Shown here one piece after another: positions 13,516-31,712 of a DNA stretch of 35,256 nucleotides (position 1 is its first letter; every line of letters begins with the position of its first letter). The stretch comes from a virus. The stretch is taken from the UHGV virus genome UHGV-1783823, one strand, 5' to 3'. The position numbers and the translations under genes were made by a program. Under the pieces are notes generated by a model. It saw only the letters and a list, made by a program, of their open reading frames with translations, had not been told where the DNA came from and did no database searches.

Positions 13516-13845
13516 TTAATCTGCCAACCTTAAATTGAAATTAACACCAAATTTTTCACATACTTCCAACATATACTCAAGGGAGACGTTACCAGTGAGA
13601 TGGATTATGTTGGATACACGAGCCTGAGAGATACCACAAATTTTAGCAACTTGCTCTTGAGAAAGACCTCTGGATTTAATCTCTCTCTTAAAACGATGTG
13701 CAACGAAATCCCTCATCTCGTCTACATCCATTGGACAAATATAACTCTCCATTTCAGCCTCTCTATCAGCCTCCCAATCATCTTGTGGAGCATAAGGGTC
13801 AAAAACCTCATTCATCTTTCTTCTTCCGTTTACGTGAAGTATCAA
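13516..13845 (-). CDS. Helix-turn-helix DNA-binding protein (XRE-like HTH at C-terminus)
   Basis: LSQEQVAKICGISQARVSNIIHL matches HTH_3-type helix-turn-helix pattern; true start may be the internal Met (MNEVFDPY). Confidence 0.6.
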   Translation of the reverse strand: MILHVNGRRKMNEVFDPYAPQDDWEADREAEMESYICPMDVDEMRDFVAHRFKREIKSRGLSQEQVAKICGISQARVSNIIHLTGNVSLEYMLEVCEKFGVNFNLRLAD

Positions 13846-14021: not shown

Positions 14022-14405
14022 TCAAATACCTGTGCAGCTTCTGTTTTCTAAGAAATACTCAACACCATACATAGCTTTTTGCATCAAATCTTCTTTAAAC
14101 TGGATACGATGATTGAGCATAGCCTGTACATCAATATCATCAGGGTGCTTCTCTTTAATATTTGCAGATTGCAGGAAATACTCTGCAAGAACACGATACT
14201 GATAGTCAGTTACCTTATCAGTCATCTCTGTTAAAGACTCTTCAGAGATTGGTTTAAGTAGTTCACCTTTAGATAGGGCAACACCTTTAACAATCTGGCA
14301 AGTGTCTTCTGGAACACCTGATAAGTCCACATTTGGAAGTTCTGTTGCATTGACTGGTAAATTCATTGCCATAACCATTGCAGCAGCTAATAAAATCTTT
14401 TTCAT
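14022..14405 (-). CDS. Secreted/periplasmic protein with N-terminal signal peptide
   Basis: MKKILLAAAMVMAMNLPVNATE has the n-h-c architecture of a Sec signal peptide with an AxA-like cleavage region. Confidence 0.6.
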   Translation of the reverse strand: MKKILLAAAMVMAMNLPVNATELPNVDLSGVPEDTCQIVKGVALSKGELLKPISEESLTEMTDKVTDYQYRVLAEYFLQSANIKEKHPDDIDVQAMLNHRIQFKEDLMQKAMYGVEYFLENRSCTGI

Positions 14406-14450
14406 AATGACCTCAAAGTTATATTAAATTTTGTATTACATTGAGTATAA

Positions 14451-14497
14451 AAATAAGCTATAACACCTGACTTGTCAACAGATTTTATAGCTTATTT
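14451..14497. promoter_or_regulatory. 13-bp perfect inverted repeat with 21-bp spacer containing a TTGACA hexamer (- strand)
   Basis: AAATAAGCTATAA (14451-14463) and its reverse complement TTATAGCTTATTT (14485-14497); spacer includes TGTCAA at 14473-14478. Confidence 0.5.
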
Positions 14498-14532
14498 GGC
14501 AGATTTTTTATAAGGCTACTGCCATCCTTCCA

Positions 14533-14582
14533 TACCTTACCTAACCAAACCGAACCTCACACAACCAGACCGAGCCGCACCC
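14533..14582. repeat. Pentanucleotide tandem array A, ~10 units, consensus NACCN; G-poor on + strand
   Basis: tacct tacct aacca aaccg aacct cacac aacca gaccg agccg caccc; ACC recurs with exact 5-bp period. Confidence 0.7.
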
Positions 14583-14588
14583 CGCCTT

Positions 14589-14612
14589 ATTAAAAGACCC
14601 TCTTCAAAGACC
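14589..14612. promoter_or_regulatory. Conserved box copy 1 (TTAAAAGACCCTCTTCAAAGACC) following array A
   Basis: ~20 of 24 positions identical to the box at 14749-14771; followed by a 7-bp stem hairpin (AGTCTCA 14626-14632 / TGAGACT 14645-14651). Confidence 0.5.
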
Positions 14613-14664
14613 TTTTAAAAAGGTAAGTCTCATTTTAATGTAGCTGAGACTAACTACCCATACT

Positions 14665-14748
14665 GTACCGCACCTGACCCGACCTGACCAGACCTAACAT
14701 TACCGTGCCACACCGTACCGAACAGAACACTGCCATACCTCACATCAC
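14665..14748. repeat. Pentanucleotide tandem array B, ~16 units, consensus NNACC; - strand reads GGTCT GGTCA GGTCG GGTCA GGTGC GGTAC
   Basis: gtacc gcacc tgacc cgacc tgacc agacc taaca ttacc gtgcc acacc gtacc gaaca gaaca ctgcc atacc tcaca; strict 5-bp register over ~80 bp. Confidence 0.7.
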
Positions 14749-14781
14749 TTAAAAACCCTCTTAGAAGACTCTTAAGTGATG
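14743..14781. promoter_or_regulatory. Conserved box copy 2 (TTAAAAACCCTCTTAGAAGACTC, 14749-14771) embedded in a 10-bp perfect inverted repeat
   Basis: CATCACTTAA (14743-14752) and TTAAGTGATG (14772-14781) are exact reverse complements; the 19-nt loop carries the box core. Confidence 0.5.
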
Positions 14782-14996
14782 CTGGTGAGTACCCGTTGGT
14801 TTATGCTGCTCAGTATACTCACCAAATTTTCTATGTCAACAACTTTTTATATAAAAGTCCTGATAGCTATATGTGTTACAAAACAGAAGATTGTGAACAA
14901 AACACCCATTGCAAAAGATGTGTCCAAAAGCTTACTTGCAATGTATGACAATACAAAGACAACCAGTATAAACAGAATGACTGTACTGAACATAGT

Positions 14997-16100
14997 TTAC
15001 TCATAATCCCTAATAACTAGCCCTACAGGAAACTGTAAAGAACCCTTACGAGTCATCTTCTGGAACTGAACAGTTAAAGGTTTCCCGATAAACTCTTCAG
15101 GATGTTCAGCAAGATACTGTTTCTTCTCATGTGTAGTTTTCCATGAAACATCTACAAAGACGTTAGGAAGAGTCTCTACAACGAACTTACCATGACCACG
15201 CTTATCGGTCTTTACACCAGTCACTTTAAACTCTTCAGTGTGCATCTTCTTGTGCTTAATCAAGAAGTATGAACGGTGACAACACTCATAGAAGGAGTCT
15301 TCAGAGATTGAACGGTACATTGCACCTTCAAACTTAGCTTCAACCCACTTATCATGAGCTTCATCGAACTCTTCCCAAGAGTTAACACGACGAGACTTAA
15401 CAGGAACAACTTTACAGCCATCTCTAAAGTCATTCAATGGTGAAGTCTCAATAATATCTCTACGCTCAGGCCACGTCTTAGTACTATCACAGATATCATA
15501 CCAGTAGAACTTAAGTAAGTGTCTGTCAGGATTGTCTTCATTTTTAATCATGGAGACAATATCTTCTAAGTCCCACCCATGAGCATAAATCTCTCCATCA
15601 AATTCATCAACATCTTTGTGGAGCCTTAACATTGCCATAATGTCGGGTATTAGTTCAGTAGGGATTTTATAAACAGTATTCTCACGAGAGTATGCTGTGA
15701 ATACACTACCAATGCTTAAGTGTCTTGAAATTCTACAACGGACACCATCAAGTTTTGGTTGAGCATCAGCAGGGAACTTCAAATACTTTGCATGGCTAAC
15801 CTTTGCAGCATCATGAGCAAGCTGTACACCCACCTTCTCAGTATTCTGTGCAGACTCTTTTGTGTAAGCATAACCTTTACGGTCAACTTGCTTTTTATAC
15901 TTAGCAGCAACTTCAAAGAGAGCTTGCTGTTCAGCGTCACGCTCATTCTTTTTACCGATGTTTTTAGGTTCTGCTGTATACTCTTCAAACATCATCTTGC
16001 CATTTTCTTTACCATAGGTTGTAATAACTTTGTCACCTACAGCAACACATGACCAGACGTTGAAGGAACCGTCTTTATTTTGTTTGTACAGAATTGTCAT
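14997..16100 (-). CDS. ATP-dependent DNA ligase
   Basis: Nucleotidyltransferase motif I KLDGVRC (KxDGxR, Arg favours ATP-dependent type), DEFDGEIYAHG (motif III-like), EGAMYRS and FLIKHKK (motifs IV/V-like); start set at internal ATG 16100 preceded by RBS AGAGG rather than ORF-track start 16136. Confidence 0.8.
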   Translation of the reverse strand: MTILYKQNKDGSFNVWSCVAVGDKVITTYGKENGKMMFEEYTAEPKNIGKKNERDAEQQALFEVAAKYKKQVDRKGYAYTKESAQNTEKVGVQLAHDAAKVSHAKYLKFPADAQPKLDGVRCRISRHLSIGSVFTAYSRENTVYKIPTELIPDIMAMLRLHKDVDEFDGEIYAHGWDLEDIVSMIKNEDNPDRHLLKFYWYDICDSTKTWPERRDIIETSPLNDFRDGCKVVPVKSRRVNSWEEFDEAHDKWVEAKFEGAMYRSISEDSFYECCHRSYFLIKHKKMHTEEFKVTGVKTDKRGHGKFVVETLPNVFVDVSWKTTHEKKQYLAEHPEEFIGKPLTVQFQKMTRKGSLQFPVGLVIRDYE

Positions 16101-16293
16101 TTTTAACCTCTGAGTGATACCAAGTATTGCAAGCATTACATGCGTAAAGCTCTAAGTCATTTTTATCTGGTTTATGGAAACAGTTTGACCCACAACGACA
16201 CCGGAATAGCTTACCATCAACACGAAGAATGAACGTTTCAAGCTTACCATCTTCTGTAAGAACTGCGTTCTTAAATTTATCTTCTACAGTCAT
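16075..16293 (-). CDS. Zinc-ribbon protein
   Basis: CRCGSNC ... CNACN cysteine clusters; 72 aa. Confidence 0.5.
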   Translation of the reverse strand: MTVEDKFKNAVLTEDGKLETFILRVDGKLFRCRCGSNCFHKPDKNDLELYACNACNTWYHSEVKNDNSVQTK

Positions 16294-24800: not shown

Positions 24801-24829
24801 TTGACAATAGAGTATCAACAAATTAGAAT
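24801..24829 (+). promoter_or_regulatory. Sigma70-like promoter (TTGACA-17 bp-TAGAAT) upstream of SSB candidate
   Basis: Consensus -35 TTGACA at 24801-24806, 17-bp spacer, -10 TAGAAT at 24824-24829; RBS AGAGG before ATG 24866. Confidence 0.6.
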
Positions 24830-27301: not shown

Positions 27302-27798
27302 GAAAAATAAAAGGTTTTGGTAATTGCCCTGAATATGGACATTGGGTTTCACTATGTGGTGAAGTTGACCCAGCAAAGCACTTTGGTTTTGTCTACCTAG
27401 TGTACTGCAAAAAGACTGGACAGTACTATTTGGGTAAGAAACAGCTTAATAGTGTGACCAAAAGAAAAGTTGCTGGCAAGACTCGGAAGAAGGTAGTCAC
27501 TAAGGAAAGTGATTGGATGACTTATGAGACTTCTTCTGAGTATATTAAAAAAGATATTGAGAGTTTTGGAAAAGAATTTTTTGACTTTTACATTATTCAA
27601 ACCTACTACACAAAAGGTGGCCTAGTCTATGGTGAAGCAAACCTTCAACATAAATTCGATGTAATGACAAAAAGGATTGACTCGAAGCTCAGACTCTTCT
27701 ACAATGCCAATATTGCAGCAATTAAGTTTATTACTAAAGAAACTTATGAAGATGCTGAAAAAAGAATCCATAAGGTAATGAAAGCAAATTGTGCTTGA
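27298..27798 (+). CDS. Putative GIY-YIG family endonuclease
   Basis: N-terminal FGFVYLVYCKKTGQYYLGKK resembles the GIY...YIG motif pair with expected spacing; ATGA overlap with HNH gene. Confidence 0.5.
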   Translation: MRKIKGFGNCPEYGHWVSLCGEVDPAKHFGFVYLVYCKKTGQYYLGKKQLNSVTKRKVAGKTRKKVVTKESDWMTYETSSEYIKKDIESFGKEFFDFYIIQTYYTKGGLVYGEANLQHKFDVMTKRIDSKLRLFYNANIAAIKFITKETYEDAEKRIHKVMKANCA

Positions 27799-29477: not shown

Positions 29478-31712
29478 ATGATTAAGACAATTAAAAAATC
29501 AAACGGTACAGTAGTAAGCTTTGACCCAGAAAGACTGAATAAATGGGCATCATGGGCAGATAAGCGTGGAATTATCTGGTCAGAAGTCACTATGGAAGCT
29601 ATGAAACGTGTCTATGAAGGTTGCACCACAAAAGAGATGCACCAAGCCATGATTGATGTTTGTGTTGATAAACAAACTCAAGAGTACTCAGATATGGCTG
29701 GACGGCTACTTCTGGGTATTATCTACAAAGAAGCCTTTGGAGGCTTTACTAAGGTTCCTACGCTGATTACCTTCGTTAAAAATATGGAGAGAGCAGGACT
29801 TTGGGAGAAGATGGATTATTCACAGGAAGAGCTTGAATACCTGCAAGGTTACATCGTGCACTCAAAAGATATCTCTTACGGTTATGCAGTCTTGAAACAG
29901 TTCAGAGACAAGTATGGTATCCGTGATATTAAAACTGGAAGACTTTTTGAGTCACCTCAATTTATGTTTATGGGTATGGCTATGAAAGCCTTTGAGAAGC
30001 AACCAAAGCACCGTAGACTGCAAGATGTTATCAAGCTGTACACTTACCTATCTGACCTGAAGATTAACGCTCCTACGCCTTATTTAAACGGTTTAAGAGC
30101 AACTAAATCAGGCTATGCGTCATGCTGTTTGATTAAGGCAAATGATACTGCTGAATCACTTGGTATTGCTGCAAAGATTGCTTATGACATGACTACAAAG
30201 CAAGCTGGTATTGGTATGCTGATGGAGACTCGCACTATTGGTGATGGTATCCGTCAAAATACTATTGAGCACATGGGTAAGCTACCTTATTACAAGCTTG
30301 TACGTTCATCTGTAGAGGCAAACAAACAGAAGAGTCGTGGTGGTTCAGCTAATAACTTCTACACTGCTCTAGACCCGCAGATTGAAGATTTACTGCGTTT
30401 GAAGCACCCTACAACGGTTCCTTCTAAACGTATTAATGAGATGGACTACTCATTCGGCACAAACGATTACTTCTGGCAGTGTGTTCAGTATGATACAGAT
30501 TGGTTGCTATTCTCTTACAAAGATGCACCAAAACTCTATGACATGTTCTACACAGCATCTGCTGATGAGTTTGCTATGGCAGTTGGTCACGCAGTACATT
30601 CAGGAGTTAAGCACAGACGAGTCAAGGCTCGTGAAATTGCTAAGCTGTTTATTCAACAGCGTTATGCTACAGGTCGTGTGTATCCATTCTTCACTAACAA
30701 TGCAAACACACATACACCATTTAAAGAACCATTGAAGATGTCAAATCTTTGTATGGAAATTGTATTGCCAGTGTATGGTTTTGAGAAAGAGACAGACCTT
30801 TACAGAGACGATGCTGTGAAAGAGGATGGTGAGGTGGCTCTTTGCTTCCTAGCTAGTTTGGTTGCAGGGAGAATTTCAGAAGATGAATACGCTGACGTTG
30901 CTTATTATGCTCTTGCAATGGTTGACTCCGTTATTGACCTTATGGATTATCCGTATCCGTCGATGCGTAACCATGTTCAGAAGCGTCGTTCTGTTGGGAT
31001 TGGCCTTACAAATGTGGCTCATTACCTTGCGAAGAACTATGTGAACTACTCTTCACGAGCAGGTAAAACGAAACTTCATGAACTGGCAGAGATGCACTCT
31101 TACTATCTGCATGAAGCCTCTCTGAGACTTGCTAAAGAGCGTGGCGTTCCAGAGTACATGAAGTTCACTAAGTATCCTGAAGGCTGGGTTCCTCCAAAGA
31201 CAGCTAACAAGAAGATTGATGAAAAGCATGATGCAAAACTACGATATGATTGGGATGACTTAGCACAACGTATCAAAGAAAATGGTGGAATCCGAAACTC
31301 TGTATTAGAAGCTTACATGCCTAATGAGAGTTCTTCACTAGCAACTAACACGACAAATGGCTTGTACCCAATTCGTGACTTTATTTTAACTAAAAAGTCT
31401 GCAACTGGTAACGTACTGTTTATTGTTCCAGATTATGAAGAGTTGAAGTATGTTTATGAAATTGCTTGGGATATTGACACCTTTGACATGATTGATTGTT
31501 ATGCAATTGTTCAAAAGTTCACTGGTCAAGCTATTTCTTCAGACTTCTATGTTGACTATGCAAAGTCTAAGAAGGTATCATTGGCTCAAGCTCTGAAGTA
31601 CATGATTTATGCCAACTCGGTAGGTATGAAAACCATGTACTACCTTAATAGTCGCATTGGTGTAGGTAAATCTGCACTGCAAGATGCTTATTGCGAGGGT
31701 TGTGGTGTTTAG
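29478..31712 (+). CDS. nrdA: Ribonucleotide reductase class Ia large subunit
   Basis: N-terminal ATP-cone-like region (VVSFDPERL); active-site NLCMEI; C-terminal redox Cys pair (CEGCGV); 744 aa. Confidence 0.9.
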   Translation: MIKTIKKSNGTVVSFDPERLNKWASWADKRGIIWSEVTMEAMKRVYEGCTTKEMHQAMIDVCVDKQTQEYSDMAGRLLLGIIYKEAFGGFTKVPTLITFVKNMERAGLWEKMDYSQEELEYLQGYIVHSKDISYGYAVLKQFRDKYGIRDIKTGRLFESPQFMFMGMAMKAFEKQPKHRRLQDVIKLYTYLSDLKINAPTPYLNGLRATKSGYASCCLIKANDTAESLGIAAKIAYDMTTKQAGIGMLMETRTIGDGIRQNTIEHMGKLPYYKLVRSSVEANKQKSRGGSANNFYTALDPQIEDLLRLKHPTTVPSKRINEMDYSFGTNDYFWQCVQYDTDWLLFSYKDAPKLYDMFYTASADEFAMAVGHAVHSGVKHRRVKAREIAKLFIQQRYATGRVYPFFTNNANTHTPFKEPLKMSNLCMEIVLPVYGFEKETDLYRDDAVKEDGEVALCFLASLVAGRISEDEYADVAYYALAMVDSVIDLMDYPYPSMRNHVQKRRSVGIGLTNVAHYLAKNYVNYSSRAGKTKLHELAEMHSYYLHEASLRLAKERGVPEYMKFTKYPEGWVPPKTANKKIDEKHDAKLRYDWDDLAQRIKENGGIRNSVLEAYMPNESSSLATNTTNGLYPIRDFILTKKSATGNVLFIVPDYEELKYVYEIAWDIDTFDMIDCYAIVQKFTGQAISSDFYVDYAKSKKVSLAQALKYMIYANSVGMKTMYYLNSRIGVGKSALQDAYCEGCGV

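What the first reader, a model, noticed from the sequence alone, without database searches (positions are those of the whole stretch)
14451..14497. 13-bp perfect inverted repeat flanking a TTGACA hexamer upstream of the secreted-protein gene
AAATAAGCTATAA and its exact reverse complement lie 21 bp apart, and the spacer contains a - strand TTGACA. A perfect 13-bp dyad is unlikely by chance in AT-rich DNA. Its geometry fits a dimeric regulator binding over a -35 element, or an RNA hairpin that processes or stabilises the operon transcript just before the signal-peptide protein gene (14022-14405).
Basis: seen in the sequence. Interest (0 to 1): 0.5.

Follow-up and report, generated by a model that had tools for sequence, protein, structure and literature searches.

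The report
Promoter-in-hairpin ending a phage VIPR array
The 13-bp dyad is real: it forms a hairpin directly after the last guide RNA of a VIPR (RNA-guided phage-versus-phage) cassette in a Felix O1-like phage, with a host-type promoter for the next operon built into it, which is a known kind of promoter/terminator unit in a new setting.

Summary
AAATAAGCTATAA (14451-14463) and its reverse complement (14485-14497) are perfect, and a minus-strand TTGACA (14478..14473) lies between them. This is the longest perfect inverted repeat in the window. The window is a Felixounavirus. The 591-bp gap upstream of the secreted-protein gene holds two (GGYNN)n guide RNAs (vrRNAs) of a VIPR system, described in 2026 for the related phage SUSP1. 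This phage lacks the vipr and vap protein genes. The dyad starts one base after the last vrRNA's pseudoknot tail. As minus-strand RNA it folds into an 18-bp hairpin (-17.8 kcal/mol) followed by UUUUUAU, with the -35 hexamer in its loop and TATTTT, 17 bp on, as the -10. Relatives without VIPR lack the dyad but keep the operon's HTH regulator, so an operator for that regulator is unlikely. Every strong intergenic promoter here sits inside a hairpin, as in the PeSL units of T4-type phages. Most likely it is a composite unit. The hairpin ends or trims the vrRNA transcript, and the promoter restarts the downstream operon. Neither activity has been tested. The dyad itself is ordinary; its context is topical.

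The parts
14485..14497 (-). 5' arm of the dyad on the transcribed (minus) strand, AAAUAAGCUAUAA. It covers about -58 to -46 of promoter P2, an AT-rich UP-like position, and begins one base after the vrRNA tail.
14464..14484 (-). Spacer of the dyad. The inner 5-bp stem pairs 14483-14479 with 14469-14465 and includes one U.G pair. There is a 1x1 mismatch (14484 against 14464). The 9-nt loop UUGACAAGU is at 14478-14470.
14473..14478 (-). -35 hexamer TTGACA of promoter P2, in the hairpin loop. It is invariant in all relatives examined.
14451..14463 (-). 3' arm of the dyad, UUAUAGCUUAUUU. It forms the distal half of the P2 spacer and the first five bases of the -10.
14450..14455 (-). -10 hexamer TATTTT of P2, 17 bp from the -35.
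14444..14449 (-). TATACT, a second -10-like hexamer 23 bp from TTGACA. It corresponds to the -10 of the single promoter in VIPR-free relatives. It also ends the U-rich run UUUUUAUACU after the hairpin, and the 100% identity to Suspvirus stops here.
14498..14531 (-). Invariant 3' tail of the proximal vrRNA, GGAAGGAUGGCAGUAGCCUUAUAAAAAAUCUGCC. It forms a pseudoknot with S1 AAGG/CCUU and S2 GGCAG/CUGCC.
   Evidence: bioRxiv 10.64898/2026.04.26.720920
14532..14586 (-). Proximal vrRNA repeat tract, 11 GGYNN units.
14590..14618 (-). Inter-vrRNA hairpin ('hairpin A'), UUAAAAGGUCUUUGAAGAGGGUCUUUUAA.
14622..14659 (-). Tail of the distal vrRNA (GGGUAGUUAGUCUCAGCUACAUUAAAAUGAGACUUACC). Its stem shows compensatory changes in SUSP2 and Moogle.
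14660..14744 (-). Distal vrRNA repeat tract, about 16-17 GGYNN units.
14743..14781 (-). Leader hairpin A1, CAUCACUUAAGAGUCUUCUAAGAGGGUUUUUAAGUGAUG.
   Evidence: (I2)
14812..14839 (-). Promoter P1 (TTGACA-16-TATACT, 11/12), the promoter of the VIPR cassette. It is identical in SUSP1.
14782..14825 (-). Inverted repeat that encloses the -10 and start site of P1. Its arms covary in VIPR-free relatives.
14022..14405 (-). First gene of the downstream operon, a 127-aa protein with a signal-peptide-like N-terminus and no Pfam family.
13516..13845 (-). HTH_3 (Cro/CI-type) regulator gene in the same operon. It was the candidate binder and was tested and disfavoured.

Best explanation
The dyad is a composite stem-loop and promoter unit at the 3' edge of a VIPR guide-RNA cassette. 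Transcription from P1 (14839..14812) runs leftward through two vrRNAs. Immediately after the last vrRNA's pseudoknot tail, the nascent RNA folds into the 18-bp dyad hairpin followed by UUUUUAUACU. That hairpin attenuates or terminates the vrRNA transcript, defines or protects its 3' end, or both. On the DNA, the same 47 bp carry a host sigma-70 promoter, P2, with TTGACA in the hairpin loop and TATTTT 17 bp downstream. P2 re-initiates transcription of the secreted-protein, HTH, DHFR and thymidylate-synthase operon, which the inserted cassette has separated from its original promoter. Shown here: the sequence, the fold, the promoter match, the position relative to the vrRNA tail, and co-inheritance with the cassette. 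Inferred: termination or processing activity, and promoter activity.
For: The arrays are VIPR vrRNAs. They have GGY/NN pentamers with hypervariable NN and invariant tails. The locus matches that of phage SUSP1, the representative VIPR locus of bioRxiv 10.64898/2026.04.26.720920. The dyad begins one base after the tail. It occupies the place that hairpin A holds after the other tails, and in a distant VIPR phage, LESphi2, the tail before vipr is also followed by a stable hairpin. The fold is -17.8 kcal/mol with z = -4.3, and it persists in 130-nt and 371-nt contexts. The inner stem contains a U.G pair that is valid only on the sense strand. The commonest natural variant (A to G, 4 contigs) turns A-U into G.U. 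P2 scores 10/12 and shares AAAA-NN-TGTTGACA with P1. Among about 55 relatives there are 0 variable positions in the 26 arm positions, 0 in the -35 and 0 in the -10. By contrast, 3 of the 3 other loop positions vary, and 8 of 38 positions in the 5' UTR vary. The dyad is present in all VIPR-bearing loci examined, always 92 nt from the ATG. It is absent from three VIPR-free Ounavirinae, where a single TTGACA-N17-TATACT promoter sits directly before the same gene. All three strong intergenic sigma-70-like promoters in the window lie inside inverted repeats. The arms of the P1-type repeat covary across four phages. This geometry matches the PeSL units of T4-type phages, in which stem-loops overlap the -35 or -10, terminate transcription and flank shuffled cassettes (PMC2839356; PMC4122927).
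Against: There are no expression data for this site. The preprint's figures and supplements were not available, so the 3' end of the last vrRNA and any start site downstream are unknown. As an intrinsic terminator the hairpin is atypical. It is AU-rich (4 G-C pairs of 18), has a 9-nt loop, and has a good U-tract only if the three terminal A-U pairs open. The consensus scan did not list it. The arms never vary, so there is no compensatory evidence for the outer stem, and one variant (U to C) breaks an inner pair. The 100% identity across genera probably reflects recent horizontal transfer of the cassette (Vipr is 97-100% identical) rather than selection on the dyad. The -10, TATTTT, matches only 4 of 6 positions.
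Confidence: 0.55

Rival explanations
1. The dyad is an RNA maturation signal only. On this view the hairpin, like the inter-vrRNA hairpins, is a double-stranded processing site cut by host RNase III, or recognised by the RAMP protein Vipr, that releases the roughly 100-nt vrRNA. It does not terminate transcription, and downstream genes are read through from P1 as well as from P2.
For: Mature vrRNAs are reported as about 100 nt or less, which is the repeats plus a 40-nt tail, so flanking hairpins must be removed. The dyad sits exactly where hairpin A sits after the other tails. The 13+5-bp stem with an internal mismatch resembles phage RNase III substrates (own knowledge). The U-tract is weak for a terminator.
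Against: The dyad shares no sequence with hairpin A. The stem is shorter than the roughly 20-22 bp of classic RNase III sites. The dyad is kept at 100% identity in the many phages that lack vipr. No cleavage data exist.
Confidence: 0.25
2. The dyad is an operator. A dimeric or tetrameric DNA-binding protein (the operon's HTH_3 regulator, or the VIPR accessory protein Vap1) binds the two 13-bp half-sites and occludes the -35 of P2.
For: Perfect dyad symmetry is centred on a -35 element. An HTH_3 gene lies two genes downstream. The type II vap genes are predicted DNA binders. The arms are more conserved than the intervening spacer.
Against: The half-site centres are 34 bp apart, not about 10 bp. 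There is a single site per genome. The symmetry extends inward through a G.U pair that is a mismatch at the DNA level. The regulator is conserved, with a near-identical recognition helix, in Mordin and ESh22, which lack the dyad and any half-site. The dyad is unchanged in the roughly half of phages that lack vap. Analogous repeats at sister promoters covary in sequence, which fits base pairing and not a protein site.
Confidence: 0.1
3. The element is only a promoter. On this view the arms are the AT-rich UP-like region and the spacer/-10 region of P2, their complementarity is a by-product (for example of a partial promoter duplication), and it has no function of its own.
For: The distal part of the 5' arm (TATAA) belongs to the motif ATAAAA-NN-TGTTGACA shared with P1 and with VIPR-free promoters. 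A 13-nt perfect repeat still arises in about 5% of random windows.
Against: The complementarity continues for 5 more pairs inward. The arm part of the spacer is invariant while the rest of the spacer varies. All three strong intergenic promoters in the window have such repeats, and the P1-type arms covary.
Confidence: 0.12
4. The dyad works at the DNA level as a recombination or cruciform element. On this view it marks the cassette boundary and promotes gain or loss of the VIPR cassette, or it extrudes as a cruciform that switches P2 with supercoiling.
For: The cassette is bounded by two similar promoter units, P1 and P2. It is present, absent or internally deleted among close relatives. PeSL units mediate such shuffling.
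Against: Homologous recombination between promoter repeats needs no hairpin. The EP1/SUSP1 homology breaks at the ligase stop and at the ATG, not at the dyad. Nothing here tests cruciform formation.
Confidence: 0.07

Closest known systems
PeSL (promoter-early stem-loop) composite promoter/terminator cassettes of T4-type phages (Arbiol et al. 2010, PMC2839356; Comeau et al. 2014, PMC4122927)
   Same: Both have a near-consensus sigma-70 promoter with an AT-rich upstream region and a stem-loop that overlaps the -35 or -10, with G.T pairs in the stems. Both are intergenic and lie just before an SD and ATG. Both flank modules that are present or absent between close relatives.
   Different: This phage belongs to a different subfamily (Ounavirinae). 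The stem is long and AU-rich rather than the GGGG/CCCC type. The arms are not a repeated sequence family across the genome. The bounded module is a guide-RNA array rather than an ORFan. Neither the terminator nor the promoter activity has been tested here.
Type II VIPR locus of Escherichia phage SUSP1 (bioRxiv 10.64898/2026.04.26.720920)
   Same: The P1 leader, hairpins, vrRNA architecture, final tail and dyad are identical in SUSP1. In both, the dyad directly follows the last vrRNA.
   Different: The window, like about half of dyad-bearing phage records, lacks the vipr and vap genes. The text of the preprint that could be read does not mention a hairpin, terminator or promoter after the array.
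Rho-independent (intrinsic) terminators
   Same: Both are stable hairpins on the transcript followed by a U-rich run. An A-tract lies on the 5' side.
   Different: The stem is AU-rich, the loop is 9 nt, and the U-tract is interrupted. A promoter is embedded in the hairpin.
RNase III processing hairpins between early genes of phage T7 (own knowledge, not tested)
   Same: Both are intergenic sense-strand hairpins with an internal mismatch, placed between transcription units and close to promoters.
   Different: The stem here is shorter, and there is no evidence of cleavage.
Cro/CI-type operators overlapping a -35 element
   Same: Both show dyad symmetry over a -35, with an HTH_3 gene in the operon.
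   Different: The half-site spacing is 34 bp. There is one site only. The regulator persists in phages that lack the dyad.

Membership tests
PeSL-like composite promoter/stem-loop unit | Near-consensus sigma-70 -35 and -10 hexamers with 16-18 bp spacing | tested here: met
   TTGACA-17-TATTTT scores 10/12. P1 scores 11/12.
PeSL-like composite promoter/stem-loop unit | [quoted passage not shown] | tested here: met
   The minus strand reads CCAAATAAGCTATAAAATCTG before TTGACA.
PeSL-like composite promoter/stem-loop unit | A stable stem-loop that overlaps or abuts the promoter boxes | tested here: met
   The -35 lies in the loop and the -10 in the 3' arm. The fold is -17.8 kcal/mol, z = -4.3.
PeSL-like composite promoter/stem-loop unit | Repeated at many intergenic sites of the genome | tested here: inconclusive
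   All three strong intergenic promoters in the window are embedded in hairpins. The arms differ in sequence, however, and only 35 kb was examined.
PeSL-like composite promoter/stem-loop unit | Flanks modules gained or lost between close relatives | tested here: met
   The VIPR cassette between P1 and P2 is full, internally deleted or absent in different relatives.
PeSL-like composite promoter/stem-loop unit | The stem-loop terminates transcription and the promoter is active in vivo | not testable with these tools
   This needs reporter assays or Term-seq.
Intrinsic terminator | G+C-rich stem with a short (3-8 nt) loop | tested here: not met
   Only 4 of 18 pairs are G-C and the loop is 9 nt. 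The scan did not list the site.
Intrinsic terminator | U-tract directly after the stem | tested here: inconclusive
   UUAUACU follows the full stem. The run becomes UUUUUAUACU if the three terminal A-U pairs open.
Cro/CI (HTH_3) operator | Half-sites about one helical turn apart, bound by a dimer | tested here: not met
   The centre-to-centre distance is 34 bp.
Cro/CI (HTH_3) operator | The site co-occurs with its regulator across relatives | tested here: not met
   The regulator is 64-78% identical in Mordin, Silverhawkium and ESh22. The dyad and its half-sites are absent from the VIPR-free Mordin and ESh22 loci. The EP1 locus also lacks them, but its regulator was not recovered.
VIPR vrRNA (the context of the dyad, not the dyad itself) | 9-16 tandem YNNGG repeats with conserved GGY and hypervariable NN | tested here: met
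   There are two tracts in the window. The NN positions differ among relatives while the flanks are identical.
VIPR vrRNA (the context of the dyad, not the dyad itself) | Invariant ~40-nt 3' tail with a pseudoknot | tested here: met
   The tail is identical to the SUSP1 locus. Compensatory differences between tail types are AAGG/CCTT versus GTGG/CCAC and GGCAG/CTGCC versus GGTAG/CTACC.
VIPR vrRNA (the context of the dyad, not the dyad itself) | Adjacent vipr (RAMP) gene, usually with vap | tested here: not met
   tblastn finds neither gene in the window or in the whole Bas63 genome. Both are present at 97-99% identity in many sister phages.
RNase III processing site | About two turns of dsRNA, cleaved by RNase III | not testable with these tools
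   The stem is 13+5 bp with a 1x1 internal loop. Cleavage is untested.

The most novel reading that the evidence does not exclude
The dyad hairpin may be an undescribed, integral part of VIPR guide-RNA biogenesis. On this reading it sets the 3' end of the last vrRNA. Together with P1 it forms a self-contained, promoter-bounded cassette that moves between Ounavirinae genera. The vipr-less arrays it terminates, found in about half of Felix O1-like phages including this one, would still be functional. They could use Vipr supplied in trans by co-infecting phages or satellites, or they could act as decoys.
Probability: 0.2. Interest if true: 0.65.

Novelty: new member of a known kind. Interest (0 to 1): 0.4.

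Why it matters
VIPR is a newly reported RNA-guided DNA-recognition system. How its guide arrays are transcribed, ended and insulated from neighbouring genes is not described in the text of the preprint that could be read. This element gives a concrete, testable candidate for the 3' boundary of the array and for how the phage restores expression of the operon that the cassette displaced. It also extends the promoter/stem-loop linker idea from T4-type phages to Felix O1-like phages, which are widely used for typing and biocontrol. Finally, it flags that many of these phages carry guide arrays without the effector gene.

Tried and rejected
- **Database scans with no result.** Rfam at gathering thresholds found nothing in the window and there are no tRNAs.
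- **Ideas for the repeats before VIPR was found.** I considered a TRAP-like ring-protein RNA site, T7-type primase sites, an R-loop origin, Chi-like sequences, a pac site and ribosome standby sites. All were dropped once the VIPR preprint explained the arrays.
- **Literature.** The Felix O1 and UAB_Phi87 genome papers do not list this promoter, dyad or the repeats. A search for Felixounavirus transcriptomes returned nothing relevant. The PhageMaP paper on Bas63 gives no data on this gap. No supplements of the VIPR preprint are held.
- **Compensatory variant.** I looked for a double variant (G15 with C33) among about 55 viral and metagenomic loci. Only the single changes exist.
- **E. coli genomes.** I searched complete genomes for the tail plus dyad, hoping to find satellites. 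There was no match.
- **Second half-site.** The one extra half-site in Bas63 lies inside a homing-endonuclease coding sequence, with 0.014 expected by chance. I treated it as coincidence.
- **Decay of orphan arrays.** GGY units in the last array of vipr-minus and vipr-plus phages were listed. By eye they look alike, and the window's last guide is nearly identical to one in a vipr-plus contig (L173). The script did not isolate the array, so no clean fraction was obtained.

Full report
**Observation**

The sequence is as described. AAATAAGCTATAA lies at 14451-14463 and its exact reverse complement at 14485-14497, 21 nt apart, with a minus-strand TTGACA at 14478..14473. The symmetry continues inward to a 19/19-nt imperfect repeat around a 9-nt centre. 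It is the longest perfect inverted repeat with a loop of 40 nt or less in the window. A 13-nt perfect repeat of that kind arises in about 5% of first-order Markov windows. Folded as minus-strand RNA, it gives 13 bp, a 1x1 mismatch, 5 bp and the loop UUGACAAGU. The energy is -17.8 kcal/mol, z = -4.3, with 0 of 200 shuffles as stable. As DNA it is -11 kcal/mol.

**Where the window comes from**

The window is a Felix O1-like myovirus (Felixounavirus, Ounavirinae); 252 phage records match the region. All genes from 19934 down to 10922 are on the minus strand. The dyad lies in a 591-bp gap between the DNA ligase gene (14997-16136) and a 127-aa gene with a signal-peptide-like start (14022-14405).

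**The unexpected context**

On the minus strand the gap holds two tracts of pentamers, (GGTNN)n, at about 14532-14586 and 14660-14744.

- In 24 relatives the flanks are almost identical, but the NN positions differ freely while GGT is kept.
- A scan of viral contigs with seven in-phase GGTs returned at least 120 loci from very diverse viruses, far above chance.
- A literature search identified these as vrRNAs of VIPR systems (bioRxiv 10.64898/2026.04.26.720920).
- That preprint describes 9-16 YNNGG repeats with conserved GGY and hypervariable NN, followed by an invariant 3' tail of about 40 nt with a pseudoknot. The vrRNAs are bound by a small RAMP protein, Vipr, and used for gapped RNA-guided DNA recognition against competing phages.
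- The preprint's representative locus is phage SUSP1. The SUSP1 region I fetched has one array upstream and three downstream of two genes of 196 and 147 aa, exactly as the preprint describes.

**Anatomy of the cassette**

In vipr-bearing Felixounaviruses the order of elements is as follows:

1. the ligase gene;
2. promoter P1 (TTGACA-16-TATACT);
3. a leader hairpin;
4. one or two vrRNAs;
5. vipr and vap;
6. a GC-rich terminator;
7. vrRNAs separated by 'hairpin A';
8. the final vrRNA tail GGAAGGATGGCAGTAGCCTTATAAAAAATCTGCC;
9. the dyad;
10. the secreted-protein gene.

The two tail types show compensatory differences in both pseudoknot stems. The dyad starts one base after the final tail (14498/14497) and stands where hairpin A stands after the other tails.

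The window has P1, two vrRNAs and the dyad, but no vipr or vap. tblastn finds neither gene in the window or in the complete Bas63 genome. In the phage database 231 records carry the dyad, but only 118 carry Vipr at 90% identity or more. Orphan arrays are therefore common.

**Promoter**

TTGACA-17-TATTTT (14478..14450) is one of only three strong intergenic sigma-70-like sites in the window. It shares AAAA-NN-TGTTGACA with P1. Its orthologue is annotated as a predicted promoter in phage ASO1A. The whole hairpin lies upstream of the predicted start site, so it can exist only in RNA arriving from P1.

**Conservation**

The dyad is always 92 nt from the ATG, whereas the upstream architecture varies from 273 to 959 nt. 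Variation among about 55 viral and metagenomic loci is distributed as follows.

| Region | Variable positions |
|---|---|
| Arms | 0 of 26 |
| -35 hexamer | 0 of 6 |
| -10 hexamer | 0 of 6 |
| Other loop positions | 3 of 3 |
| Inner-stem columns | 2 |
| 5' UTR | 8 of 38 |

One inner-stem change is A to G, which keeps the pair as G.U. The other is U to C, which breaks it.

The block from the tail to TTTTTATACT is 100% identical in Suspvirus and Mooglevirus, whose neighbouring genes are only about 74-81% identical. Vipr and Vap are also 97-100% identical across these genera. This identity most likely reflects recent transfer of the cassette and cannot be read as selection on the dyad alone.

**The discriminating comparison**

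Three Ounavirinae without any VIPR remnant (Mordin, ESh22, EP1) have a single promoter, AAAGTTGTTGACA-N17-TATACT. It lies after the ligase gene, directly or after a small ORF, and just before the same secreted-protein gene. They have no dyad and no half-sites. Mordin and ESh22 keep the operon's HTH_3 regulator at 64-71% identity, with a nearly unchanged helix-turn-helix. The dyad therefore travels with the VIPR cassette, not with the regulator.

Four further points weigh against the operator reading. The half-sites are 34 bp apart. The site is single-copy. One inner pair is G.U on the sense strand only. The dyad persists in vap-less phages.

**A family habit**

In Mordin, ESh22, EP1 and the window's P1, the promoter is embedded in an inverted repeat. 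Its 5' arm lies in the spacer and its 3' arm in the early transcript. The four arm sequences differ but stay complementary. A third intergenic promoter at 24801-24829 (plus strand) has the same design, and its G.U pairs fall on the sense strand.

This is the geometry of PeSLs in T4-type phages. These are sigma-70 promoters with an AT-rich upstream region and a stem-loop that may overlap the -35 or -10. They have been shown experimentally to terminate transcription and to promote it strongly. They flank modules that are shuffled between close relatives (PMC2839356; PMC4122927).

**Conclusion**

The dyad is best read as a PeSL-like composite unit at the 3' edge of the VIPR cassette. The hairpin ends or trims the vrRNA transcript. 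The embedded promoter restarts the downstream operon, which the cassette has separated from its original promoter.

The weak points are these:

- There are no expression data.
- The hairpin is atypical for an intrinsic terminator: it is AU-rich, has a 9-nt loop and has an interrupted U-run.
- The outer stem shows no covariation, because it never varies.

A pure processing role is a close variant of this reading. An operator, a plain promoter or a DNA-level recombination element are less likely. The dyad itself is a new member of a known kind. The surrounding VIPR arrays were already described in 2026. Their frequent occurrence without vipr does not appear in the preprint text I could read.

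Noticed in passing
window 14532-14586 and 14660-14744 (minus strand), with tails 14498-14531 and 14622-14659: There are two VIPR guide RNAs (vrRNAs) made of GGYNN pentamers with pseudoknot tails, driven by P1. Neither vipr nor vap is in the window. About half of dyad-bearing phage records (231 against 118 with Vipr) share this orphan state. By eye the orphan arrays look no more decayed than those of vipr-plus phages, and the window's last guide is nearly identical to one in a vipr-plus contig (L173).
   Followed up: yes
loci L053-L131 (IMG/VR), for example L057, L061, L062, L069, L072, L077 and L078: Degenerate (GGTNN)n arrays in tandem modules with short conserved linkers occur in at least 120 very diverse viral contigs. 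They often end a few bases before an RBS and ATG. Some hits are plain microsatellites instead, for example (GGTAT)n in giant-virus contigs.
   Followed up: partly
window 14782-14825 (minus strand); L184, L186 and L187 upstream of the secreted-protein gene: An inverted repeat encloses the -10 and start site of P1-type promoters. Four phages have four different arm sequences, all complementary, which is clear covariation. The hairpin can form only in read-through RNA from the ligase gene.
   Followed up: partly
window 24801-24829 (plus strand) and about 20 nt downstream: A third strong intergenic promoter (TTGACA-17-TAGAAT, 11/12) has arms AGAGTATCAA and TTGGTACTCT enclosing its -10. The design is the same promoter-in-hairpin arrangement.
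   Followed up: no
window 14847-14993 (minus strand): A 48-aa strongly hydrophobic ORF lies between the ligase gene and P1. It is annotated in Bas63 (bas63_0038), and an ORF with a similar hydrophobic start lies at the same place in Mordin. It is probably a small membrane protein. Pfam finds nothing.
   Followed up: no
L051 (Bas63) 27330-27429: The proximal vrRNA of Bas63 contains GGTTAGGTAT repeated about 4.5 times. This suggests that replication slippage expands guide tracts.
   Followed up: no
L051 (Bas63) 30313-30325: There is one extra exact copy of the half-site TTATAGCTTATTT inside a putative homing-endonuclease gene, with 0.014 expected by chance. No partner arm lies nearby, so it is probably coincidence.
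   Followed up: partly
window 14410-14444 (minus strand): The predicted 5' UTR of the secreted-protein gene folds so that CUCAA pairs with UUGAG of the Shine-Dalgarno region. This could modulate translation.
   Followed up: no
L188 (Pseudomonas phage LESphi2) 2080-2440: A distant VIPR locus (Vipr 38% identical) sits next to the cI/cro region. It has GGC-type vrRNAs upstream of vipr, and the last tail is followed by a GC-rich UUCG hairpin.
   Followed up: partly
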